Sequence record: MZ234033.1
Direction: 5' to 3' (one strand)
Origin: Escherichia phage vB_EcoS-G3B1
DNA length: 51,299 nt
Numbering within the stretch: the first letter of the stretch is position 1; each line of letters begins with the position of its first letter. Below the pieces are notes generated by a model, which worked only from the letters and a program-made list of their open reading frames with translations, ran no database searches and was not told the DNA's origin. This document shows, piece by piece, positions 32,235 through 50,084 of this stretch. A program made the position numbers and the translations under genes.

Positions 32235-32513
32235 TTAAGCCCATTCTCTAATAGGCTGATCTAACTCAACCACGTATCCATTAAAAATTACGGCATCAAA
32301 CTTATCATCAATGATTCGCACATTAACGAAATAGCCGTCGTTCTTTCGCGCAATCTCCTCGCCATCGTCAGTTCGTGCAATTACTGTATAAGTATTGCCG
32401 ATTACATCGAGCAGGATTGCATCCTGAATGGATTCGTTATCATCCCAATTAATTTTTCCTAAAAAGGCCGAAAACTCGGCCTTGTCTGAAAATTTTAATG
32501 TTAAATCACGCAT
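32235..32513 (-). CDS. Hypothetical protein downstream of tail fibre (92 aa)
   Basis: Start overlaps tail fibre stop. Confidence 0.45.
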   Translation of the reverse strand: MRDLTLKFSDKAEFSAFLGKINWDDNESIQDAILLDVIGNTYTVIARTDDGEEIARKNDGYFVNVRIIDDKFDAVIFNGYVVELDQPIREWA

Positions 32514-34504
32514 TAAACAATTTCCCCCAATTGATGATCTGTTAGTGCCTTGTGCCAGATTCGCAAGTTCTTGACGTGTCCGAACAAGTGCCTGTTACCA
32601 GATGCAGACTGTCCGCCAATATTTATGTTTCCTGCAATGTATCGTTGCTTAGTCCACAATGAAGGAGACTCACTGCCAAGAACGCCATCAACTACAACTT
32701 GTAATTTTTTTTCTTCCGTAAATATGAATCCAGCAACAAACTTATTCTTAACTCTATCCCCATATGCTTTATATTCAGTTTTGCTACCTTTGCCGTTAGT
32801 GATTATCAACCTTCTTCCTCCGCTTGTTAAACCAAAATACATGTAACTCTCGTCTTGTATTTCAGTTGTAGATCCAGTAATTGATACATTTAGAAGTCTT
32901 GCTGATCCTTCTATGTTTGGCATTTTATTTACAGCGCCCCAATTAACATTAACCTCCATCAATGCGCATATAGGCGGAGTCGCCCAGTTCATAGGAATTG
33001 GAATGAGCACAATATCGCTAGCTCTTGTTGTTGGTGATCCTTCTGTTATTATGAATGATGATGCACACGAGCCAACCTCAATCTGAGGGGTTGTAAGATC
33101 CATAAAGCTAGTTTCATCAAGAATACCACCACCTGTTTTGTTGGCAATTGTAATAACACCTCTAACATGAGTTGTTTCATCTGTTATTTTATACACAACC
33201 TCTACAAAAACCCACTCACCAACACGAACAGCATTTTTTGCAACAATATTTTCTATATCGCCACCGGACAAATGAATACCTAGACTATCGCAATCAATGT
33301 ATGCAATTGCTACAGCAGATAGAGGATCGCCCTTATCAAATCTTGCACCAAATCTAACATTATTCCCTTTCGCTCTGAAAGATATAGTTACCATATCATT
33401 TTTTACAACTGGTATTTTATTTGGTGTCAGTCCTGCAATGACAGTATATGCACCAGTACCACCAGAAAATTCTCCTGGCTTGAATGTTGCATATTTAAAG
33501 CCTAATGGATCGGTCTTTGTTTTGCTTATTTCAAGCCCTGGGTTTGGATTCCATAACTCCGGTGAGTTTGAATTTATGAAATAGTTAGTTCTCTGACCTT
33601 CGATCAGTAAACCATCCCTTTCAAATCGAGGTTCATCAACATCTGCAATAGTAAGCACGCCAGCTTTATTTATGTAAGTTGCACCGGATGCGCGCTTAAA
33701 GTTGACAACCTTATCTGATGGCATTGTGATCACATCATCGCCAACAGTTATTTTTTTGTAACCAGGAGCAAAGCCGGTGATCATATCCAGGGAATCATTA
33801 AACGGTATCCACACGTCCGGCAACGGTTGCAATAAATCTTTGTAAGGTTCTGCGGCCTGCTTTGCGTATTCCTCCGCTTGATCTCGCGCGCTTTCAGCGC
33901 CTGCCTTTGCAGTGTTCGCAGCATCACGCGCAGTTTCAGCGCCTTCTCTTGCTGTTTCAGCGCCAGTCTTTGCAGTGTTTGCAGCGTCGCGCGCGGATTC
34001 AGCGGCAGCCTTTGCAGTATCAGCACCTTTCTTGCTATTCGCTGCATTTGTTGCGCTTGTCTTCGCGTTATTCTCGCTGGTTTTAGCTGCCTGCTGGCTT
34101 GCTGCTGCTGCGTCAGCATTTGTCTTTACGTCTTCCTGGATCTTCTGTAGCTTATCCCAATCAAAATCCTTGATGATCTCAATAAATCCAGCAAACTCAG
34201 ATTCCTTCCCCTGGTAATAACGCAGCGTTTCCGCTACGTCTTGCGCAAGACCGTCAACCGTTAACGAGTCATGAAGCAAGATCAGGTAATTTGTCTTCTG
34301 TACTACCGCGCCGCCAGTAGTAATTGCGCGAATGCTTGTATCGCTAATCACTTCAGTAATCACAGCAGCTTGCAAAGGTTGAGAAAGAAAGAAAATAGTT
34401 GCACCTGGGCGAATCAAGGTTAATTGCTCACGCCATTTTGTACCGTAACCAGTTACATAACCTTGCGCGTCCATAGACGCTTGGCCTTGTCTGTAAATCG
34501 CCAT
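32513..34504 (-). CDS. Side tail fibre protein with Ala-rich tandem repeats
   Basis: 663 aa; N-terminal MAIYRQGQA; repeat block AKTSATNAANSKKGADTAKAAAESARDAANTAKTGAETAREGAETARDAANTAKAGAESARD. Confidence 0.7.
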   Translation of the reverse strand: MAIYRQGQASMDAQGYVTGYGTKWREQLTLIRPGATIFFLSQPLQAAVITEVISDTSIRAITTGGAVVQKTNYLILLHDSLTVDGLAQDVAETLRYYQGKESEFAGFIEIIKDFDWDKLQKIQEDVKTNADAAAASQQAAKTSENNAKTSATNAANSKKGADTAKAAAESARDAANTAKTGAETAREGAETARDAANTAKAGAESARDQAEEYAKQAAEPYKDLLQPLPDVWIPFNDSLDMITGFAPGYKKITVGDDVITMPSDKVVNFKRASGATYINKAGVLTIADVDEPRFERDGLLIEGQRTNYFINSNSPELWNPNPGLEISKTKTDPLGFKYATFKPGEFSGGTGAYTVIAGLTPNKIPVVKNDMVTISFRAKGNNVRFGARFDKGDPLSAVAIAYIDCDSLGIHLSGGDIENIVAKNAVRVGEWVFVEVVYKITDETTHVRGVITIANKTGGGILDETSFMDLTTPQIEVGSCASSFIITEGSPTTRASDIVLIPIPMNWATPPICALMEVNVNWGAVNKMPNIEGSARLLNVSITGSTTEIQDESYMYFGLTSGGRRLIITNGKGSKTEYKAYGDRVKNKFVAGFIFTEEKKLQVVVDGVLGSESPSLWTKQRYIAGNINIGGQSASGNRHLFGHVKNLRIWHKALTDHQLGEIV

Positions 34505-34611: not shown

Positions 34612-35541
34612 TTATAGCAGTGATTCAGGCTTGTAGAGTTTTCTTTCTACGCCCTGTTTAAAATTATCGTTAACAGGCATCATTATGTCAAGCCCTCTTT
34701 CCTCTGCCGCGATTATCACATCACGATCATCTTTCCGGCAGACTACGCGCATTCTTCTTTCTCCTTTATATCTATGCGCAACCATTTCAAGATTTGAAGG
34801 AGTAAAACAGGCCCACACCTCTTGACCAGTTGATAAATGAACATGCTGAGAATCAATCCAATCAAGGCACAAATAGATCGTCTTATCTGTACTACCTGTT
34901 TTAACAACAGATCCGCGCGTGTAGTCGCGAGCTAAAAACCAATCCTTTCCATCCTCATCAATGAAAAGCACGTTACACATTTCATCATCCAGCCCGTCAT
35001 CATGCACCAGGTGACAAGGTAGCGCGTGAATGTATCGACCATCCTTGACGCCGCAATCATAATGACAATCTTCCGGCGGATATATCCCCTCATAAACGCT
35101 TAAAGGTGTGCGATCGAATTTTAATGTTTTTGCCATCACTTTTTCGCAACATTCATGACTTGCCTGTTTCCCGAACGAGTAACCAGAAGAACGCGAAGCG
35201 CGTTTGTTTGCTCTGATCCTGTAATCTTGTGGCACTTTTCCGAGGAAGCGGCCCAAAATGTTGATGGCCTCGCTGTAAGGTTCGCCAGTTAATTTCATTA
35301 ACCAACCGATCCCCGTGTCGTTGCCGCACACGTTGCAGATCGCGCCGCCGTCGCCCTCTTCATTTAGCTTATCAGTCCATCTAAAACGATCCTTACCGCC
35401 GCAGTGTGGGCAAGGTTGATGCTTTTTGTTGAAAACATCGCTATGCAGTCCGCAAATGCTTTGTAGTGCTTCACGCCATAACCCCTTCATATATGGCAAA
35501 ACATCTTCTTTCTGATAGGTCATAAAGTTTTCAGTATTCAT
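34612..35541 (-). CDS. DNA primase (zinc-finger containing, putative)
   Basis: CPHCGG...CNVCG zinc-binding motif; RBS GAGG before ATG at 35541 (ORF-track start trimmed). Confidence 0.5.
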   Translation of the reverse strand: MNTENFMTYQKEDVLPYMKGLWREALQSICGLHSDVFNKKHQPCPHCGGKDRFRWTDKLNEEGDGGAICNVCGNDTGIGWLMKLTGEPYSEAINILGRFLGKVPQDYRIRANKRASRSSGYSFGKQASHECCEKVMAKTLKFDRTPLSVYEGIYPPEDCHYDCGVKDGRYIHALPCHLVHDDGLDDEMCNVLFIDEDGKDWFLARDYTRGSVVKTGSTDKTIYLCLDWIDSQHVHLSTGQEVWACFTPSNLEMVAHRYKGERRMRVVCRKDDRDVIIAAEERGLDIMMPVNDNFKQGVERKLYKPESLL

Positions 35542-35553
35542 GGCAAACCTCAA

Positions 35554-35590
35554 TAAAAAAGCCCAGCAAATATTATCATTTCGCTGGGCC
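35554..35590 (-). terminator. Hairpin plus T-run between HTH gene and primase (possible attenuator)
   Basis: Minus-strand GCCCAGCGAAATGATAATATTTGCTGGGC then TTTTTT. Confidence 0.4.
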
Positions 35591-35596
35591 TTATCA

Positions 35597-36073
35597 TTAG
35601 CTATTCGTGCTGTTATCACCTTTGTAGAATCGTCCGCCTGGTTCGTAGTCTGAATTTTTGACTACGCGCAACATATCGTATTTGTCGCAACGGGTAGTAA
35701 GAGGCTTACCGTTAGAATCAAACCGCAGATCTGGACGACAAAATGATGCGCGGTATCCTTTGCATCCATTATATTTGTAGTCGTTATGCACCTTTTGTGC
35801 TCCAGCGGCTGAAATCATACCACGCTTTCGCCACTGGTTAACGACTTGCTGAGATACGCGCAGACGTCGAGCCATAGCAGGAACGCCGCCGTAATACTCG
35901 ATCAGAATGTCAAGGCGAGATTTCAGGCTTGCTTTTACCTCATCTCGCAGGATAAGAAATCCGGTTCGGTGTTTTCGTGGTTTTTTGTCTTTACCTCGTC
36001 GCGTTCCGTTGTTACCGTTAATAGTGCGCTTGTCGATCTCACCCGTAGATACTGCAATTCGTGCATCTTTCAT
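35597..36073 (-). CDS. HTH DNA-binding protein (Cro/CI-type-like)
   Basis: Segment GGVPAMARRLRVSQQVVNQWRKRG typical of helix-turn-helix; 158 aa. Confidence 0.45.
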   Translation of the reverse strand: MKDARIAVSTGEIDKRTINGNNGTRRGKDKKPRKHRTGFLILRDEVKASLKSRLDILIEYYGGVPAMARRLRVSQQVVNQWRKRGMISAAGAQKVHNDYKYNGCKGYRASFCRPDLRFDSNGKPLTTRCDKYDMLRVVKNSDYEPGGRFYKGDNSTNS

Positions 36074-36160: not shown

Positions 36161-38158
36161 ATGATTCCAAATATCGAAAAACAAATATCAGCATTAGGCG
36201 AGGCAGTAATAAAAAGCATCCAAGAGCGATTCACGGTTGGCAATATAGTGCCTTATCCTTATCAGTGCGTTGCGTATGCAGAGATCGCAAAGCGCATGAA
36301 AAACTATGAGCATCCTTTCTTTGTTAAGGCTTCTGTATCGGCTGGCAAAACATTGATGTTTGCGATGGTTGCGGCGCAATGCCGCAAAATGGGATTGAAA
36401 ATGATGGTCCTTGCTCGCCAGGCTGAAATTGTTGATCAGGATTCGGAGGAGATCAGCAATCTTGGCGTGCCAAACTCAATCTATTGCGCCGGACTGAAAA
36501 CAAAAAGCGCATACTTTCCGATCGTAGTCGGTTCTGAGGGCACTGTAGTAAACGGATTGTTTAAGTCGTTAGGTGATTATGTTCCGCACGTTATCGGTAT
36601 TGATGAATGTCACCAGGTGGATTGGGAGGATCTCGCGGACGCGATAGAAAATAATGAATCTTACCAGCAGATGACCACTAAGAAGGATTTGCCTGTACTG
36701 ATTGGAGAAGAACAGCAATTTGATTCCAATGGCGATCCAATGTTCGGAACAGGGCGCACACAGTACACCGTAATAATCATGGAAATGATGCGTAGGTGTC
36801 GCGAGGCATACGGGCACGAATTGCGAATATTCGGCATGACTGGATCTGAGTTTCGCGGCGTGGTTCCAATACTGGTTGAAGATAAGAACAAAAAGGGATT
36901 CTGGCGTGAGCAGGTGACTAACATAGACACAAACTACTTAATCAAATTCGGTTCGGTAGTGCCAACAAACTTCGGCGACGTAGGCGACCTGGGTTATGAC
37001 CTTTCAGAGTTCGAAGCCAGTAGCGAGGATGGCGTTTCAGACTTTGACGCTAAAACATTGCGCAAGATGGAAGAAAAGATCCATCAAGACGCAACAATGA
37101 CACAGAAAATCATGGCTAAAGTCCATGAGATATGCAAAGACAGGAACGGAGTTTTAGTTACATGCGCAGGGGAAAGGCACTGCAAGGAGGCCGCCGCCGC
37201 ACTGCCGCCAGGCGTTGAATACAGGATCATAACTGGCAAGACTGGAGATAATCAGCGTAAAGAGTGGCTGAGGGAGGCATACGAGGGAAAAGTAAAATAC
37301 ATCTTCCAGGTACAGGCGCTTACCACTGGCGTTAACGTTCCGTTTTGGGATACTTCGGTAATACTGAGAAAGATAGGATCTCTAACATTGCTTATCCAGC
37401 TTTTGGGGCGCGGCATGCGACTGCTTAAGCAATGGCACATTGAACAGGGATTCAAGAAAAAAGATCATCTTGTATTGGATTTTGCAGGTACTATGGATGA
37501 GTTAGGTGATTTGTATTTCGATCCAATCCTTGAGCAAGCGCAATTCCAAAAGAGATTTACAAACGGGAAAGAGCCTAAGACTTGTCCGATATGTGGAACG
37601 CTAAACAGCTTTTACGCTCGCCGATGTATGCACGTAGACGATAACGGGAAGCGATGTGAGCATTTTTGGACTTACAGAATTTGCGAGGACCAGGTAGATC
37701 AGAGAACGAAAAAGATAATCAAGCGCGGTTGCGGAACAAAAAACGACGTAGTGGCGAGAGTATGCCGTTGTTGCGATATTTCTCTTGTCGATCCTAACGA
37801 GAAGTTAAGCGGCAAGCACTACACCAAAAACGATTGGTGCAACGTTAAATCTTTCCGCGTTGATATGACGAAAAACCAGAAAGGAATTATTTTTTGCTAT
37901 GAGCTTGAGGCCAACGGCGACACGTTCAAGGCATACGAAAGATTTTTCCCTGAGTCAGAAAGCAACATTTGCCGGACGATATGGAGAAAAATAGCATTGC
38001 AGCACATACCGGATCGCAAGATTGCTGGTATGGTGGCGAGCTATAGAAATGCTCGTAAAATAATATCATACGCTCATCACATCATGCCGCCTGTACGCGT
38101 AACGCATCGCAAAAACGGCAAAGGTGAGGATAACATTGCAAAACGGGAGTTTGTTTAA
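36161..38158 (+). CDS. SF2 helicase (DEAD/DEAH-box type)
   Basis: Walker A SVSAGKT and motif II GIDECHQ; 665 aa; followed by VRR-NUC gene. Confidence 0.75.
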   Translation: MIPNIEKQISALGEAVIKSIQERFTVGNIVPYPYQCVAYAEIAKRMKNYEHPFFVKASVSAGKTLMFAMVAAQCRKMGLKMMVLARQAEIVDQDSEEISNLGVPNSIYCAGLKTKSAYFPIVVGSEGTVVNGLFKSLGDYVPHVIGIDECHQVDWEDLADAIENNESYQQMTTKKDLPVLIGEEQQFDSNGDPMFGTGRTQYTVIIMEMMRRCREAYGHELRIFGMTGSEFRGVVPILVEDKNKKGFWREQVTNIDTNYLIKFGSVVPTNFGDVGDLGYDLSEFEASSEDGVSDFDAKTLRKMEEKIHQDATMTQKIMAKVHEICKDRNGVLVTCAGERHCKEAAAALPPGVEYRIITGKTGDNQRKEWLREAYEGKVKYIFQVQALTTGVNVPFWDTSVILRKIGSLTLLIQLLGRGMRLLKQWHIEQGFKKKDHLVLDFAGTMDELGDLYFDPILEQAQFQKRFTNGKEPKTCPICGTLNSFYARRCMHVDDNGKRCEHFWTYRICEDQVDQRTKKIIKRGCGTKNDVVARVCRCCDISLVDPNEKLSGKHYTKNDWCNVKSFRVDMTKNQKGIIFCYELEANGDTFKAYERFFPESESNICRTIWRKIALQHIPDRKIAGMVASYRNARKIISYAHHIMPPVRVTHRKNGKGEDNIAKREFV

Positions 38159-42194: not shown

Positions 42195-42586
42195 TGAAGA
42201 ATTTTTTACTTACACCAATCGCAATGGCGGTGATCTTGTCTGGATGTTCAAGCGTTACGCCACTGACCGGATTAATCGGCAGTAAGCCGGAAATCACAGC
42301 ACAGGCTGGAGCGGAGAACGTGAAGCAGACAGTTGGCATTACAGCAAAGCAGGACGCCAGCACAAAACAGGAAACCACAATAAAGGAATCTGCGGTTGAC
42401 AAGGTGGACACGTCCAGCAAGAAGGATTTCACAACATCAACCATTCAGGCCAATACCATCAAGGCAGACAAAATTCAGGTCGTGCAGGGTAATAACGGCA
42501 GATGGTACGATCCAGTAATCATATGCGTGGTTGTGTTTCTTGTGCTGATTTGTCTTTACTGGAGAGAAAAGAAAAAGGAGGCTTAA
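42191..42586 (+). CDS. Unimolecular spanin (T1 gp11-like)
   Basis: N-terminal lipoprotein signal with lipobox LSGC plus C-terminal TM helix ([16 protein letters not shown]); last gene of lysis cassette. Confidence 0.7.
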
Positions 42587-42602
42587 TGCCTCCTTTATTT
42601 TT
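42576..42602. terminator. Bidirectional intrinsic terminator
   Basis: A-run, hairpin GGAGGCTTAATGCCTCC, T-rich tail; between convergent spanin and minus-strand genes. Confidence 0.6.
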
Positions 42603-43023: not shown

Positions 43024-43419
43024 TCATGTGATATTGAATTTACGGCGCAGTGCTTCAAGATCTTGTCTATTAGCTTTTGCCTGGAACAATTCATCATCGC
43101 CCATCTCCCCTATTCTAGCTATATCCCTGATCCAGTCGTTGCGCATACCATCCAGGCTATACAATTCGAATCCGAAAGGCCGCTTTGACGATCCTTTGGA
43201 CCAGTATTTTCCGCAGACTCCATCTATATAACCAGCCGTCATCATTCTTGCGCAAAATTCCTTAGATGCAAGGCTGGCGAACATTCGCGGCGTAAGTCCG
43301 GCGGCCCGTGCGAGCCGCTCACATTCTCTATGCTGATAGATAAATTTGGCTATGTGCTGCCTGTTAAACCAATCGTATGACTCACACCATTTATACAGAT
43401 CAAGCAAAAACATAATCAT
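43024..43419 (-). CDS. Hypothetical protein (131 aa)
   Basis: Start overlaps stop of upstream P-loop gene. Confidence 0.5.
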   Translation of the reverse strand: MIMFLLDLYKWCESYDWFNRQHIAKFIYQHRECERLARAAGLTPRMFASLASKEFCARMMTAGYIDGVCGKYWSKGSSKRPFGFELYSLDGMRNDWIRDIARIGEMGDDELFQAKANRQDLEALRRKFNIT

Positions 43420-44996
43420 CCCAGCAGTATTGGATTGACAAAAATAACACCATTAATCACACAAACATAATTTCTTTCTTCCAGCATTGGCAGTAAGTGC
43501 CCTTCTATCCTTTTCATTACTCCAGCCTGACCAACGAAAGGTTTTACCTTTCTCGCTGATTCGTACAGGGCGCGGATATTCAGAATCCCTTTATTAGCCT
43601 TGCCGTGCCTCGTGATCAATTCAATCAATTTACCCATTTCAGCATCATCACCAGCATAACCAGAAGCATTGGCGGCGCTAATGTATGTTTTGCTCAATTC
43701 CTGAAACATGATCAACGCCTCTTGCATTGTTTCCACGTCGATCTCTTTCGACTTCTGCGGGTATCCGGCAGGATTAAACCAGTTACGGATAACATGCAGG
43801 ACGGAAGCAAGCCTGATCACCTGTTTATCCATTTTACCCAGCGCACCGCGTAACATTGTATGAGAATACTTTCCTCCGTCTGCAAGATGCGGTTCCATAT
43901 CCTGGCGAGCAATGTTGAGCACTCGCATAGCTGAACGGCTTATTTTCAGCGATATATTTGATTCGCTCATGATGTTATGCACCAATTGATAATATTGGGC
44001 TTTCAATTCAGAATCCACCGCCTCATAGGTAGAATCACCATTTTCATCAATGAATGAGCGACGGCCTAAGAATGATTCCTCTCGGACCAACAAAAAACGC
44101 TCACTAACACCGATGCCTCGCGATCCAGCGTCCATGATTCCGCTTATCGTTTCATCCTGGGCTATGACGCTCATACATCCAAGCGCGCGAAAACTCATAT
44201 TATTGTCAGCATTAGCACGGGCAATTGATACGTGACCATTATCCCACGCCTTAAGCACTAACTCACTGTTAGTCTTCCTTTCGCTATTTGCATATGTCAA
44301 GCCTAACAGACTGTTAATACTTGTTGCTTCATCAGATATTACGGCAAAGTTACCTTGCTTGTTGTTGATTTTCGCCAAGCCTTCTGGAGTTGTATCTGAA
44401 ACAGGAAAAGTTATATCACACATTTTTTCCAGCTTTTCCTCCAGATCCTCTTTTTCCTGGTATAGAGATTCCATATCAGCGCCGGATCTTTCGCTTTTCA
44501 TCTCCTTTGCAAGACCTGCCAGCTTTGCCTGTATTTTCTTTCTTTCCTTGCGGCGTTGCTCGTTGATCTTCTCAACTTCCGCAATCATCGGAGCAATAGC
44601 CATGCTGTTGATCGCAGATTTACCAGTTGACGGCGGCTGGCTTGTAACGACGTAAAGCGCAGTCGGCTGATCGGTTCCGTGATAGTCAACCGTAAAGCGT
44701 CCAAGCATAGCGGCAGAAATGCAGCCGATAAAGTGCATGTAAGCCGATGATTCAGGGAATTGAACGGATCGCGCAATGCTGCGTGATAACTTGCCGACAA
44801 CATCAATATCATTACCAAGAGAAATAACGGGGTAGCGATCGTGACCGCTATTCACATCCTTTACGTCGCCCCAAAAGCTGGACGACTGGCGATAGCCGTT
44901 AGCCTGAATTGATACGCGAACTGGCGAAAGGTTCTGGCTTTCAGCCATAGCGATTATTTGTTGTGGAGTTAATTTGTTCGTTTCTAATGAAAACAT
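43416..44996 (-). CDS. P-loop NTPase of unknown function (526 aa)
   Basis: Walker A SQPPSTGKSA and Walker B-like AVISDEAT; RBS AAAGGAGAAG before ATG 44996; first gene of a cassette. Confidence 0.6.
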   Translation of the reverse strand: MFSLETNKLTPQQIIAMAESQNLSPVRVSIQANGYRQSSSFWGDVKDVNSGHDRYPVISLGNDIDVVGKLSRSIARSVQFPESSAYMHFIGCISAAMLGRFTVDYHGTDQPTALYVVTSQPPSTGKSAINSMAIAPMIAEVEKINEQRRKERKKIQAKLAGLAKEMKSERSGADMESLYQEKEDLEEKLEKMCDITFPVSDTTPEGLAKINNKQGNFAVISDEATSINSLLGLTYANSERKTNSELVLKAWDNGHVSIARANADNNMSFRALGCMSVIAQDETISGIMDAGSRGIGVSERFLLVREESFLGRRSFIDENGDSTYEAVDSELKAQYYQLVHNIMSESNISLKISRSAMRVLNIARQDMEPHLADGGKYSHTMLRGALGKMDKQVIRLASVLHVIRNWFNPAGYPQKSKEIDVETMQEALIMFQELSKTYISAANASGYAGDDAEMGKLIELITRHGKANKGILNIRALYESARKVKPFVGQAGVMKRIEGHLLPMLEERNYVCVINGVIFVNPILLG

Positions 44997-45014
44997 TCGT
45001 TAGCTTCTCCTTTG

Positions 45015-45070
45015 TGGGCCGTAAATTTTAACGGCCCAATACTACCCCGTTTTGTCAAAAAGTGCTATTT
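45015..45070 (-). promoter_or_regulatory. Cassette motif variant + hairpin (minus)
   Basis: Minus-strand AAATAGCACTTTTTGACAAAAC then hairpin GGGCCGTTAAAATTTACGGCCC then RBS. Confidence 0.5.
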
Positions 45071-45286
45071 GATCCGCTCTATTGCAACCAGAAGTCGATC
45101 AGGCTGGCGGTCGCTGTAGCATTCTCCTGTAATCCCATCCTTAAACGTAAAGTAAAGCGCCTTATGATATGAAAAACCAATCAGCCAACCTACCGCCGTT
45201 TTTTTGGTTGGCCTGACTATATCGCCAGGCTTGAAAGTCTTTGTGGTAGAATGCGTTACTTTGTAACGGTTCTCACTGTTTATCAC
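45065..45286 (-). CDS. Small hypothetical protein (73 aa)
   Basis: ORF in minus cassette array with overlapping start. Confidence 0.5.
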   Translation of the reverse strand: MINSENRYKVTHSTTKTFKPGDIVRPTKKTAVGWLIGFSYHKALYFTFKDGITGECYSDRQPDRLLVAIERIK

Positions 45287-45669
45287 AGATATTTGCCCTC
45301 AAACAGATAACATCCGCCAGCAGAGAATCCGACCTCTTCACGGTACAGGTTCCAGCGGTCGCCGCACTCATCAAAAACATAACCCGCAACGCTTCCAAGC
45401 GGTCGCCCTTTCTCGATCTGGTATCGCTTTCCCTGCTTAAAGTGCTTTTTGCACGGCATGTTATGATCTACAAACGTGCAAATAACGGTTTTTGTGTTAA
45501 TTGCGCGGTAATCATCTCGGTTTGCTGGAAGCCAACGGCTACCCTTAACAAGCGTCTTAACCTGGAACTCTTCCAACTCGATCACATCATTACTTCCTGC
45601 AATCTTCTGATAAACCGTTTTAAAACGGCCTTTCATCAATACGTTGGTTTCATTACAGATAACATTCAT
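45283..45669 (-). CDS. Hypothetical Cys-containing protein (128 aa)
   Basis: RBS AAAGGAGATCTAATC before ATG 45669; first gene after cassette motif. Confidence 0.55.
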   Translation of the reverse strand: MNVICNETNVLMKGRFKTVYQKIAGSNDVIELEEFQVKTLVKGSRWLPANRDDYRAINTKTVICTFVDHNMPCKKHFKQGKRYQIEKGRPLGSVAGYVFDECGDRWNLYREEVGFSAGGCYLFEGKYL

Positions 45670-45689: not shown

Positions 45690-45744
45690 TTCGATGTGAT
45701 TATGCCAGGTTTTTACACCTGGCTTTTAACAAAAAGTGCTATTT
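45690..45744 (-). promoter_or_regulatory. Cassette motif + hairpin + CATAAT + CACATCGAAC leader (minus)
   Basis: Minus-strand AAATAGCACTTTTTGTTAAAA, hairpin GCCAGGTGTAAAAACCTGGC, CATAATCACATCGAACAAAC. Confidence 0.55.
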
Positions 45745-46455
45745 TGAGTTTGACTCAAATACGGCGCGAGCAAATCCGCGCGGAGTGAGGGAGCGGATCA
45801 TCTTTGTGCGTGATGAATTGCCGCCAGTTTTGGCCCACCCTGGATTATCTTTGTCTTTCTCTTTCGGCAGGATTAAAGCGCGTGGAGGAATAACAAAGCC
45901 GTTGCCAGTCCAGAGGCATGTTTTCTTAAAGTAGCGATCCCGCGCCGGAATAATATCAGGGAAGTCGGGATGTTTATCATCTTCCGGCAGATAGCCAGCG
46001 TAATCGCACGGATGGAACGTATAATCAGGCTTTCGCCATAACGTTGACAACTTGCCAACCGGATTTTCGATCATGTATGGAACACCGAAATAATCAGCTA
46101 TATCAGCCGCGATCCTGCAAGTGTCTGCGGCCTCATCCTGGAAAGATGGATTTTTAAGGCGCTTTTTAGCCCAATGGCGAGATCCGCTATTTGCAAGGTC
46201 GGTGCATGGTGGGAAGGCCATAATAAAATCAGGATTGCCCCACTCATTATTGATTGCCTTAACATAAAAAGCATCATCAATCCAGACGTTAACGTATTCG
46301 ATATTCTCATGCTGTATGCGCACTGACTGGTAATCACCGTGATCGCCGCCGTCAGCATTAAAGCAAATGCACTTATAGCCATTATCAGCCCAATCTTTAA
46401 CGGCTTTACCAGATCCATCAAATAGGGAGAATATTAAACCTTTATACATCGTCAT
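45739..46455 (-). CDS. Minimal C5-cytosine-methyltransferase-like protein (no obvious target-recognition domain)
   Basis: Motif I-like FSLFDGSG, PC dipeptide in MAFPPCTDLANSG, ENV-like MIENPVG, C-terminal RSLTPRGFARA; only about 238 aa. Confidence 0.4.
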   Translation of the reverse strand: MTMYKGLIFSLFDGSGKAVKDWADNGYKCICFNADGGDHGDYQSVRIQHENIEYVNVWIDDAFYVKAINNEWGNPDFIMAFPPCTDLANSGSRHWAKKRLKNPSFQDEAADTCRIAADIADYFGVPYMIENPVGKLSTLWRKPDYTFHPCDYAGYLPEDDKHPDFPDIIPARDRYFKKTCLWTGNGFVIPPRALILPKEKDKDNPGWAKTGGNSSRTKMIRSLTPRGFARAVFESNSK

Positions 46456-46459
46456 TACC

Positions 46460-46684
46460 TCAAAACGGAAAACAGCGTGGACAACTAGGATCAAAATCGC
46501 ATCCACAATCATTAACAATCATAGTGGGATCTGCAAATATTGCGCTTGATTCAAGATCCATATCCATATCACCTAAAGCCTCATCAAGAGTCTTAATTTT
46601 ATATGCCACTTCAAGCGCCGCCTCTTTATTTAGTCCGGCATCTTCTGCCATTTGAAGGCGTTCAAAAAATCCGTCTTGACTCAT
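46460..46684 (-). CDS. Small acidic Cys-cluster protein (74 aa)
   Basis: D/E-rich with C-terminal CGCDFDPSCPRC; translationally coupled to neighbours. Confidence 0.5.
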   Translation of the reverse strand: MSQDGFFERLQMAEDAGLNKEAALEVAYKIKTLDEALGDMDMDLESSAIFADPTMIVNDCGCDFDPSCPRCFPF

Positions 46685-46797: not shown

Positions 46798-46838
46798 TTC
46801 CACCTCATTTAAAAGGCGGCAAAACGCCGCCAGATTAA

Positions 46839-49391: not shown

Positions 49392-49411
49392 TTACTATCT
49401 CCTGAGCGGTT

Positions 49412-49472
49412 CGTTTCGATGTGTGTAATGTACCCGATCAGGTGGCCTGAGTTTTAACAAAAAGTGCTATTT
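49412..49472 (-). promoter_or_regulatory. Cassette motif + TACATT + CACATCGAAACGAAC leader (first minus cassette)
   Basis: Minus-strand AAATAGCACTTTTTGTTAAAAC ... GGGTACATTACACACATCGAAACGAACCGCTCAGGAG. Confidence 0.55.
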
Positions 49473-50084
49473 GACAGTTAGCACCAGGATTGTGATCGAA
49501 ATAATCAAAAGTAATCATTCGTAATCAAATCACGTCAAAATGATGATTGTCTTTGCAAATTTGATGAGAAAAGTAATCACGTTTAATCATTGGTTGCAGG
49601 GGAGATAGTGAAACCTTCCCCTCTTGCCTCACTTTTCCGCCTGGCTGTCAGTGGTTGTTGTCTTTTGTTCACCACTGTTACCGATTTCATGCGGCGTGTT
49701 TCCGCGCGGTTTTCCGGTGTATCGAAAACGGAAAAAACAAAAAAAATCCTTTATAATACATTGAAAATAAAGATTATTTATTTATATATATCTATAATGT
49801 TTTCTTTTTGTTCTCACTGTTACAGTGCTTTTTGTTGGGTGTGGTGTGGTTGTGTGTTGGTATATATGGATAGTTGCGCGCGCGGCGGATTGCATATGTA
49901 TATATACTTTTTCCGGCGGATTGCGTTAACAGCGTGAACAGAAAAATAACAGCACTGAAATCAATAACTTGCGCATGATTTTGTAGTTTTTCGATATTGG
50001 TAACGTTTTGAATACAACAAAAACATTGACACGCACCAAATAGCTTTTATAATGCGCCAACAGTCAACAACTGGAGGAAAGGAA
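49473..50084. promoter_or_regulatory. AT-rich divergent intergenic island with GTAATCA iterons, GT-rich tract and near-consensus sigma70 promoter (TTGACA 50026-50031, TATAAT 50048-50053)
   Basis: About 610 bp without credible ORF; shares GTTTTCCGGTGT(T)ATCGAA, GT-rich and TGTATGTATATA blocks with 28543-28967. Confidence 0.55.

What the first reader, a model, noticed from the sequence alone, without database searches (positions are those of the whole stretch)
43416..44996. Large P-loop NTPase of unknown function as first gene of a minus-strand cassette
526-aa protein with Walker A (PPSTGKSA) and Walker B-like (VISDEAT) motifs about 100 residues apart, and a long C-terminal region with no motif I recognise. 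It is not obviously the replicative helicase (a separate SF2 helicase and primase exist). Candidates include a replication initiator, a recombination ATPase or an anti-defence ATPase.
Basis: inference. Interest (0 to 1): 0.5.

Follow-up and report, generated by a model that had tools for sequence, protein, structure and literature searches.

The report
MCM-like DUF3987 helicase of T1-like phage
The "unknown P-loop NTPase" is the conserved DUF3987 helicase of T1-like coliphages, an MCM-like ring ATPase already annotated as "DNA helicase" in public records and most likely the phage's replication-fork helicase, so the finding is real but ordinary.

The parts
43416..44996 (-). CDS, 526 aa (58 kDa): DUF3987-family, MCM-like AAA+ (SF6) helicase; ortholog of T1 ST9, tonn gp43 and the TLS 'yfiJ' gene
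45007..45012 (-). Shine-Dalgarno AAGGAG, 10 nt upstream of the ATG
   Evidence: read directly from the sequence
44697..44996 (-). N-terminal all-helical domain (aa 1-100). The first ~60 aa align only among close relatives. In distant relatives this position is taken by DnaB_N, PriCT-2 or primase domains. Role as a partner-binding adaptor is inferred.
44067..44696 (-). AAA+ alpha/beta ATPase core (aa 101-310)
44616..44639 (-). Walker A / P-loop QPPSTGKS (aa 120-127); K126 invariant in 60 distant relatives
44424..44585 (-). Long helical hairpin (aa 138-191) inserted in the helix that follows the P-loop. It appears to be a family feature and, by my recollection of MCM structures, is absent there. 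Function unknown.
   Evidence: DSSP H126-166 and H172-191; coiled-coil-like chance hits on the same stretch of the family profile
44328..44348 (-). Walker B strand FAVISDE (aa 217-223). E223 is invariant. D222 is Ala in 5 of 23 orthologs.
44187..44234 (-). Beta-hairpin between Walker B and sensor 1 (aa 255-270) with invariant R260. Inferred equivalent of the MCM pre-sensor-1 DNA-binding hairpin.
   Evidence: DSSP E255-258 and E267-270; R260 invariant; assignment is inference
44151..44180 (-). Strand beta4 ending in IAQDE (aa 273-282). Q280 is invariant and is the inferred sensor 1.
44094..44105 (-). SERF motif (aa 298-301) immediately before beta5. R300 is invariant and is the inferred arginine finger (compare the MCM 'SRF' motif, recalled from memory).
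   Evidence: assignment is inference
43662..44066 (-). Linker plus helical lid domain (aa 311-445) containing RGALGKMD (aa 383-390). K388 is invariant family-wide and R383 is invariant among orthologs; these are candidate sensor-2 residues.
43419..43661 (-). C-terminal winged-helix domain (aa 446-526), basic (pI 9.25). Also matches phrog_7327 on its own.
43024..43419 (-). Downstream 131-aa ORF (phrog_2794, function unknown; labelled 'YdbL' in records; T1 ST10 occupies the same position). Its ATG overlaps the helicase TGA (ATGA), suggesting translational coupling. Possible accessory factor; not seen next to the helicase in the distant relatives examined.
34612..35619 (-). Phage primase with a primase-helicase-type zinc ribbon (PF08273) and no recognised helicase domain. 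Inferred working partner of the DUF3987 helicase. The tonn record annotates a shorter 309-aa product.
42574..42596 (.). Bidirectional intrinsic terminator-like hairpin that closes the minus-strand block (and the plus-strand lysis cassette)
   Evidence: the same arrangement is annotated in T1

Best explanation
The gene encodes the DUF3987-family helicase conserved across T1-like phages. It has a small helical N-terminal domain, an AAA+ ATPase core of the MCM-like (SF6) type, a helical lid and a basic C-terminal winged helix.

Proposed mechanism:
1. The protein assembles into a ring, presumably a hexamer. (Inferred.)
2. ATP binds at subunit interfaces, held by K126 and hydrolysed through E223, sensed by Q280 and by R300 from the neighbouring subunit. 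(Residue roles inferred.)
3. Hydrolysis drives a central beta-hairpin (R260) along single-stranded DNA, unwinding the phage replication fork. (Inferred.)
4. The phage primase makes primers and the host DNA polymerase III does the synthesis, because the phage has no polymerase gene. (Inferred; the lack of a polymerase gene is stated for T1 and TLS in PMC11447400.)
5. The winged helix and/or the N-terminal domain probably dock the ring on DNA or on partner proteins and may help with origin loading. (Inferred.)

Shown here: family membership, fold, conserved motifs, gene context and domain fusions. Inferred: ring assembly, individual residue roles, unwinding polarity, the partners, and the fork-helicase role in this phage.
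For: - Family: Pfam DUF3987 E 1.7e-44, 152.9 bits against a cut-off of 27. PHROG 2373 'DNA helicase' over the full length, E 2.6e-244.
- Motifs: K126, E223, R260, Q280, R300 and K388 are invariant in 60 relatives at about 25% identity. Their order on the predicted strands fits Walker A, Walker B, hairpin, sensor 1 and Arg finger.
- Fusions: relatives carry Prim-Pol, DnaG zinc ribbon, BT4734-like AEP, PriCT-2 or DnaB_N in front of DUF3987. No non-replicative fusion partner was recognised.
- Synteny: DUF3987, primase and SF2 helicase are contiguous in phage XCL1123 and in metagenomic locus L006. The primase lies about 800 bp away in Bas79. DUF3987 leads an operon containing an SF2 helicase, DUF3799 and SSB in L005. 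The position is conserved in T1 (ST9), and the protein occurs in 925 phage records.
- No competitor in the genome: the SF2 helicase is RadD-like, the primase matches only the first half of a 667-position primase profile, and no DnaB- or DnaC-type gene is annotated in the part of the tonn record examined.
- Literature: DUF3987 proteins classed as SF6 putative replicative helicases with a C-terminal wHTH, and N4 dns (treated there among these SF6 helicases) cited as essential for replication (PMC4889955). The PriCT-DUF3987 protein AgaPH is an oligomeric, ATP/dATP-dependent 5'->3' helicase that Walker A/B mutations abolish (PMC11724360).
Against: - There is no experiment on any T1-like ortholog, and I found none in the searchable literature.
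- In T1-like genomes the gene is not adjacent to the primase. It lies about 8 kb away, in a separate minus-strand block of small early genes.
- The TLS re-annotation names only the SF2 helicase and the primase as the replication genes (PMC11447400).
- From memory, a 1980 study (Bourque & Christensen) reported that T1 DNA synthesis needs host elongation dna genes. I could not retrieve it. If dnaB is among those genes, the phage protein would not be the sole fork helicase.
- The MCM link is structural only. HMM searches against PDB sequences did not reach MCM.
- The Walker B Asp is Ala in 5 of 23 orthologs.
- Polarity is unclear: MCMs move 3'->5' (established knowledge), whereas AgaPH moves 5'->3'.
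Confidence: 0.7

Rival explanations
1. Origin-binding initiator only. The protein recognises and melts the (unknown) T1-type origin through its winged helix and AAA+ ring, in the manner of Orc1/Cdc6 or DnaA-type AAA+ initiators. It then hands over to host DnaB, which acts as the actual fork helicase.
For: The C-terminal winged helix is basic (pI 9.25) and resembles ORC2 and Cdc6 winged-helix domains. No other initiator is recognisable in the annotated genome region. Viral helicases are proposed to take part in origin recognition (PMC4889955). My unverified recollection that T1 needs host elongation dna genes would fit this reading.
Confidence: 0.13
2. Recombination or repair motor. The protein is an MCM8/9-, ComM- or RuvB-like branch-migration or fork-restart translocase that supports the phage's recombination-dependent replication, working with exonuclease VIII, Erf and SSB rather than unwinding the primary fork.
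Against: Every recognisable domain fusion is to a primase or to DnaB_N, none to a recombinase. The RadD-like SF2 helicase with its neighbouring VRR-NUC nuclease already fits the branch-processing role. The best structural matches are replicative MCM2-7 and archaeal MCM.
Confidence: 0.1
3. Anti-defence or host-takeover ATPase, unrelated to DNA replication. This was one of the first reader's suggestions.
Against: No PADLOC match. The gene is conserved at full length in 911 phage records, unlike typical variable accessory genes. The fusion and synteny evidence all points to replication.
Confidence: 0.02

Closest known systems
DUF3987 (PF13148) helicases of phages and mobile elements, e.g. AgaPH (PriCT-DUF3987) of Seonamhaeicola sp. 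S2-3, E. coli CP4-57 YfjI, T1 ST9
   Same: Same Pfam family, far above threshold. Same three-part layout reported for AgaPH: N-terminal domain, DUF3987 ATPase and a small C-terminal domain (PMC11724360). Conserved Walker A and B. C-terminal wHTH as described for the family (PMC4889955). Association with primases.
   Different: The N-terminal domain is a lineage-specific helical domain, not PriCT (no Pfam hit). The gene is separated from its primase in T1-like genomes. The partner primase has a primase-helicase-type zinc ribbon, whereas AgaPH works with an AEP PrimPol. No biochemistry exists for this ortholog. YfjI membership and the CP4-57 context are from my own knowledge and were not tested here.
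MCM replicative helicases (SF6; archaeal MCM, eukaryotic MCM2-7, MCM8/9)
   Different: Only 11-18% identity over the top MCM matches. No match to the Pfam MCM model even at E<=1. No sequence-level PDB hit. The predicted N-terminal region is all-helical rather than the OB-fold/zinc-finger domain I recall for MCM. No helix-2 insert is evident. An extra helical hairpin of about 55 aa follows the P-loop. The only assayed family member moves 5'->3', opposite to MCM.
MCM-like helicases of staphylococcal elements: Cch (SCCmec) and the SaPI5 primase-helicase
   Different: Weaker structural similarity than to MCM. DUF927 is treated as a family separate from DUF3987 in PMC5862659; that Cch and SaPI Rep belong to DUF927 is my recollection.
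DnaB / T7 gp4 (SF4) replicative helicases
   Same: The same proposed job. Relatives even carry the DnaB N-terminal domain in front of DUF3987 (P0193). The partner primase has a primase-helicase-type zinc ribbon (PF08273).

Membership tests
DUF3987 (Pfam PF13148) | Score above the curated gathering threshold over most of the model | tested here: met
   152.9 bits against a cut-off of 27; aa 81-430 match model positions 3-350 of 364
DUF3987 (Pfam PF13148) | Conserved Walker A (GxxxxGK[ST], with variation) and Walker B (DExx), as described for the family (PMC11724360) | tested here: met
   PPSTGKS with invariant K126. SDE with invariant E223; D222 is Ala in 5 of 23 orthologs
DUF3987 (Pfam PF13148) | [quoted passage not shown] | tested here: met
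DUF3987 (Pfam PF13148) | Genomic or physical association with a primase (PMC4889955) | tested here: met
   A primase is present in the same genome, about 8 kb away. It is adjacent in XCL1123 and L006, and fused in several relatives
DUF3987 (Pfam PF13148) | ATP-dependent DNA unwinding by an oligomer | not testable with these tools
   Shown only for AgaPH (PMC11724360)
SF6 / MCM-like AAA+ helicases (fold level) | AAA+ core structurally closest to MCM | tested here: met
SF6 / MCM-like AAA+ helicases (fold level) | Sensor 1 on beta4 and a trans-acting arginine finger (SRF-type) before beta5 | tested here: inconclusive
   Invariant Q280 at the end of E273-279, and invariant R300 in SERF just before E301-305. 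The assignment rests on secondary-structure order, not on a superposition.
SF6 / MCM-like AAA+ helicases (fold level) | Pre-sensor-1 beta-hairpin carrying a basic DNA-contacting residue | tested here: inconclusive
   Hairpin E255-258/E267-270 with invariant R260. Equivalence is inferred.
MCM family proper (Pfam PF00493) | Sequence match to the MCM model | tested here: not met
   No MCM hit at E<=1 in Pfam. No MCM among PDB sequence hits with profiles A1 or A2.
MCM family proper (Pfam PF00493) | N-terminal OB-fold/zinc-finger domain and a helix-2 insert hairpin (features recalled from my own knowledge of MCM) | tested here: not met
   The N-terminal 100 aa are predicted all-helical. Helix H204-214 is uninterrupted. 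Instead there is a helical hairpin at aa 138-191.
DnaB-type (SF4) helicase | RecA-type ATPase domain (DnaB_C) | tested here: not met
   No DnaB_C Pfam hit. The structural neighbours are AAA+ proteins, not RecA/DnaB.
Known anti-phage defence or anti-defence ATPases (PADLOC) | Match to any PADLOC model | tested here: not met
   0 families at E<=0.01

The most novel reading that the evidence does not exclude
The T1-like DUF3987 protein could be a self-loading initiator-helicase. Its basic C-terminal winged helix would recognise the still-unmapped origin of T1-type phages. The MCM-like ring would melt the origin and then translocate 5'->3' like DnaB, despite its MCM-like fold. Its lineage-specific N-terminal domain would capture the phage primase and the host Pol III holoenzyme. 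One protein would then replace DnaA, DnaC and DnaB. This would explain how a 50-kb phage without a polymerase or a recognisable initiator replicates.
Probability: 0.2. Interest if true: 0.45.

Novelty: already known. Interest (0 to 1): 0.15.

Why it matters
It matters mainly for annotation. T1-like phages are very common coliphages and Klebsiella phages (925 records carry this gene), and they are used in therapy and defence-system studies. Their literature is inconsistent about which protein drives the fork: the TLS re-annotation credits the SF2 helicase, which is in fact RadD-like. Placing DUF3987 as the probable replicative helicase gives a specific target for experiments on T1 replication, which is still poorly understood (no mapped origin, no identified initiator, no known route for recruiting host Pol III). 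The broader puzzle of an MCM-like fold with reported 5'->3' polarity in a bacterial virus is interesting, but it has already been raised in the literature.

Tried and rejected
- NCBIfam: no hit.
- Sequence searches of the PDB with the single protein and with two family profiles gave only chance hits and no MCM. Residue-level motif mapping onto MCM could therefore not be done, and the mapping rests on secondary-structure order.
- PADLOC: no hit, so the defence/anti-defence reading was rejected.
- Search for iterons, tandem repeats or inverted repeats that could mark an origin in or beside the gene found only short two-copy matches, consistent with chance.
- Test for a conserved small partner: the ~72-aa ORFs upstream of the helicase in three phages, and the downstream ORFs, show no detectable similarity. 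The 131-aa 'YdbL' ORF has no Pfam or PADLOC hit.
- Literature: two defence-system papers mentioning Drexlerviridae and helicases do not concern this protein. The Kazlauskas supplements are not held.
- DnaB-type identity was considered and rejected on fold.

Full report
**1. Observation**

An ATG-initiated ORF of 526 codons occupies 43416-44996 on the minus strand. An AAGGAG Shine-Dalgarno sits at 45007-45012, 10 nt upstream. The quoted motifs are present: PPSTGKSA at aa 121-128 and VISDEAT at aa 219-225, with K126 and D222 96 residues apart.

The claim that it is the first gene of a minus-strand cassette is wrong in the transcriptional sense. The minus-strand block runs from about 49.4 kb down to a bidirectional terminator at 42574-42596. 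In the almost identical phage tonn the gene is gp43, the 13th of 15 consecutive minus-strand genes. In T1 it is ST9 of ST1-ST10. Its TGA overlaps the ATG of the next ORF at 43024-43419 (ATGA).

**2. Where the window comes from**

The gene is 99.2-99.9% identical at DNA level to Escherichia phages tonn, orkinos, tunzivis, swan01 and Shigella phage JK16 (Drexlerviridae, Tempevirinae). It is annotated there as 'putative helicase', 'DNA helicase', 'YfiJ' or 'hypothetical protein'. By tblastn the protein is present in 925 phage records, at full length in 911, mostly Klebsiella, Escherichia, Salmonella and Shigella T1-like phages. These include TLS ('yfiJ: putative ATPase', 79.7% identity). T1 itself carries the ortholog as ST9 'DNA helicase'. 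It is a conserved gene of the T1-like phages.

**3. Family**

- Pfam places aa 81-430 in DUF3987 (PF13148) at E 1.7e-44, 152.9 bits against a cut-off of 27.
- PHROG 2373 'DNA helicase' matches end to end at E 2.6e-244, and the last 85 residues also match a separate PHROG.
- NCBIfam, PADLOC and PDB sequence searches find nothing.
- An exhaustive HMMER search finds 2635 cluster representatives at E<=1e-3.

**4. Structure**

An AlphaFold2 model built from 23 homologues (36-88% identity) is confident, with pLDDT 86.5 and pTM 0.84.

- Foldseek returns MCM2-7 or archaeal MCM for the top 40 hits.

This independently reproduces the published classification of DUF3987 as divergent SF6 (MCM-like) helicases with a C-terminal wHTH (PMC4889955). 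The link is structural only. Profile-versus-sequence searches of the PDB did not reach MCM.

**5. Motifs**

Ten positions are invariant in 60 relatives at about 25% identity: K126, E205, G215, E223, R260, Q280, G296, R300, E306 and K388. Placed on the predicted secondary structure, they read as follows.

| Element | Residues | Assignment |
|---|---|---|
| beta1, then P-loop | 115-119, then QPPSTGKS (K126) | Walker A |
| Helical hairpin insert | 138-191 | Family feature, function unknown |
| beta3 | FAVISDE (E223) | Walker B |
| Beta-hairpin | 255-270 (R260) | Pre-sensor-1 hairpin (inferred) |
| beta4 | ends IAQDE (Q280) | Sensor 1 (inferred) |
| SERF, just before beta5 | 298-301 (R300) | Arginine finger (inferred) |
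| Lid | RGALGKMD (R383, K388) | Candidate sensor 2 |
| Winged helix | 446-526, pI 9.25 | DNA or partner binding (inferred) |

This order and the S-x-R-F motif fit an MCM-type active site assembled between subunits. The residue roles are inferred, because I could not superpose coordinates.

Differences from MCM proper, judged against MCM features I recall rather than tested:
- no OB-fold/zinc-finger N-terminal domain (the first 100 aa are predicted helical);
- no evident helix-2 insert;
- an extra helical hairpin after the P-loop;
- no match to the Pfam MCM model.

The Walker B Asp is Ala in 5 of 23 orthologs, while the Glu is invariant.

**6. Context and fusions**

- Every recognisable domain fused to DUF3987 in distant relatives is a replication module: Prim-Pol, DnaG CHC2 zinc ribbon, BT4734-like AEP, PriCT-2 or the DnaB N-terminal domain. 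The viral structure library shows the same pattern.
- In Pseudoalteromonas phage XCL1123 (34% identity) and in metagenomic locus L006 (39%), DUF3987, primase and SF2 helicase are contiguous on one strand. An exonuclease-VIII-type or DUF3799 gene follows within about 300 bp downstream.
- In L005 the DUF3987 gene leads an operon containing an SF2 helicase, DUF3799, an AAA_24 protein and SSB.
- In Bas79 the primase is about 800 bp away.
- In the T1-like window the same set of genes exists but is split into separate blocks. The primase is at 34612-35619 and the SF2 helicase at 36161-38158.

**7. Which helicase is replicative?**

That SF2 protein is a clear homologue of E. coli RadD, a repair helicase (PDB 6jde, E 3.3e-40). 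By the tonn annotation a VRR-NUC nuclease gene follows it. The primase has a primase-helicase-type zinc ribbon (PF08273) but covers only positions 6-316 of the 667-position PHROG 510 profile. I read that as a primase lacking a helicase half; I did not check what the rest of the profile encodes. No DnaB, DnaC or polymerase gene is annotated in the part of the tonn record examined, and PMC11447400 states that T1 and TLS have no polymerase gene. DUF3987 is therefore the only ring-helicase candidate in this genome. The TLS re-annotation nevertheless names only the SF2 helicase and the primase as replication proteins, so the T1-like literature is inconsistent on this point.

**8. Mechanism proposed**

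A ring ATPase, presumably hexameric, unwinds the phage fork. The phage primase primes, and host Pol III synthesises. The winged helix and the lineage-specific N-terminal domain serve DNA or partner docking and possibly origin loading.

Support from the literature:
- The PriCT-DUF3987 protein AgaPH is an oligomeric, ATP/dATP-dependent 5'->3' helicase. It is abolished by Walker A/B mutations and binds its primase (PMC11724360).
- N4 dns, treated among these SF6 helicases in PMC4889955, is cited there as essential for replication.

My confidence is graded: about 0.97 that this is a DUF3987, MCM-like AAA+ protein; about 0.8 that it is a DNA helicase; about 0.7 that it is the fork helicase of this phage.

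**9. Rivals**

- **Initiator only, with host DnaB at the fork (0.13).** The ORC/Cdc6-like winged helix and the missing initiator support it. The MCM-like core, the absence of iterons and the helicase activity of a family member weaken it.
- **Recombination or repair motor (0.10).** MCM8/9 and ComM hits and the recombination genes nearby support it. The exclusively primase or DnaB_N fusions weaken it, as does the RadD-like helicase, which already fits that role.
- **Anti-defence ATPase (0.02).** There is no PADLOC hit, and the gene is conserved at full length across the T1-like phages.

One caveat I could not resolve: I recall a 1980 report that T1 DNA synthesis requires host elongation dna genes. 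I could not retrieve it. If dnaB is among those genes, the first rival gains weight.

**10. Verdict**

The 'unknown function' label and the cassette position are not correct. Novelty: already known. Interest: low (0.15). The residual interest lies in the lack of any experiment on T1-type replication and in the polarity and loading questions for MCM-like helicases in bacteria.

Noticed in passing
GenBank records outside the window, e.g. MG065643 'Campylobacter phage E6': About 20 records named 'Campylobacter phage' (host Campylobacter jejuni) are ~50-kb genomes carrying a homologue of this T1-like helicase; the one inspected (E6) is 88% identical at protein level. The host assignment looks doubtful, perhaps coliphage contamination or mislabelling.
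   Followed up: no
window 36161-38158 (+): The phage's 'ATP-dependent helicase' (SF2) is a clear homologue of the E. coli repair helicase RadD (PDB 6jde, E 3.3e-40). By the tonn annotation a VRR-NUC nuclease gene follows it. It looks like a branch- or fork-processing pair rather than the replicative helicase that some T1-like papers assume.
   Followed up: partly
window 34612-35619 (-): The primase has a primase-helicase-type zinc ribbon (PF08273) but matches only positions 6-316 of the 667-position PHROG 510 profile. I read this as a gp4-like primase that lacks the helicase half; what the rest of the profile encodes was not checked.
   Followed up: partly
window 43024-43419 (-): A 131-aa ORF (phrog_2794, labelled 'YdbL' in records; no Pfam or PADLOC hit) starts with an ATG overlapping the helicase stop codon (ATGA). 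T1 ST10 occupies the same position. It is not seen next to the helicase in the distant relatives examined. It could be a lineage-specific helicase accessory factor.
   Followed up: partly
window 45015-45038 (-): An 8-bp GC-rich hairpin (TGGGCCGT-N8-ACGGCCCA) without a U-tract lies in the 68-nt gap just upstream of the helicase ribosome-binding site. It could be an mRNA processing, stability or translational control element.
   Followed up: no
window 45059-45071, 45439-45451, 45733-45745: A 13-nt motif AAAGTGCTATTTG occurs three times (at most 1 mismatch) within 700 bp. Two copies lie at the 3' ends of minus-strand genes.
   Followed up: no
window ~49400-50060: The region between the minus-strand block and the plus-strand ORFs that begin near 50 kb holds several short tandem repeats (49502-49529, 49833-49861, 49923-49941). 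It also holds a perfect sigma-70 consensus promoter, TTGACA-16-TATAAT, at 50026-50053 (+). This is a candidate early-promoter or origin region.
   Followed up: no
alignment A1, column of D222 (window 44331-44333): The Walker B aspartate is replaced by alanine in 5 of 23 orthologs (P0101, P0104, P0115-P0117), while the following glutamate is invariant. This is unusual for an active AAA+ ATPase.
   Followed up: no
window 46815-46831 (-): A strong intrinsic-terminator-like hairpin (GGCGGCG-TTT-TGCCGCC followed by TTTT) lies inside the minus-strand block. It may split the block into two transcription units; the helicase would still not be first in the downstream unit.
   Followed up: no
window 33894-34040: Imperfect 63-nt (and 21/42-nt) tandem repeats inside the large minus-strand ORF 32513-34504, which corresponds to the 'tail protein' gene of tonn. 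The tonn record annotates a repeat_region within that gene.
   Followed up: no
window 45739-46518 (-): The DNA methyltransferase two genes upstream of the helicase matches PHROG 757 (E 1.1e-85) but no Pfam family at E<=0.01.
   Followed up: no
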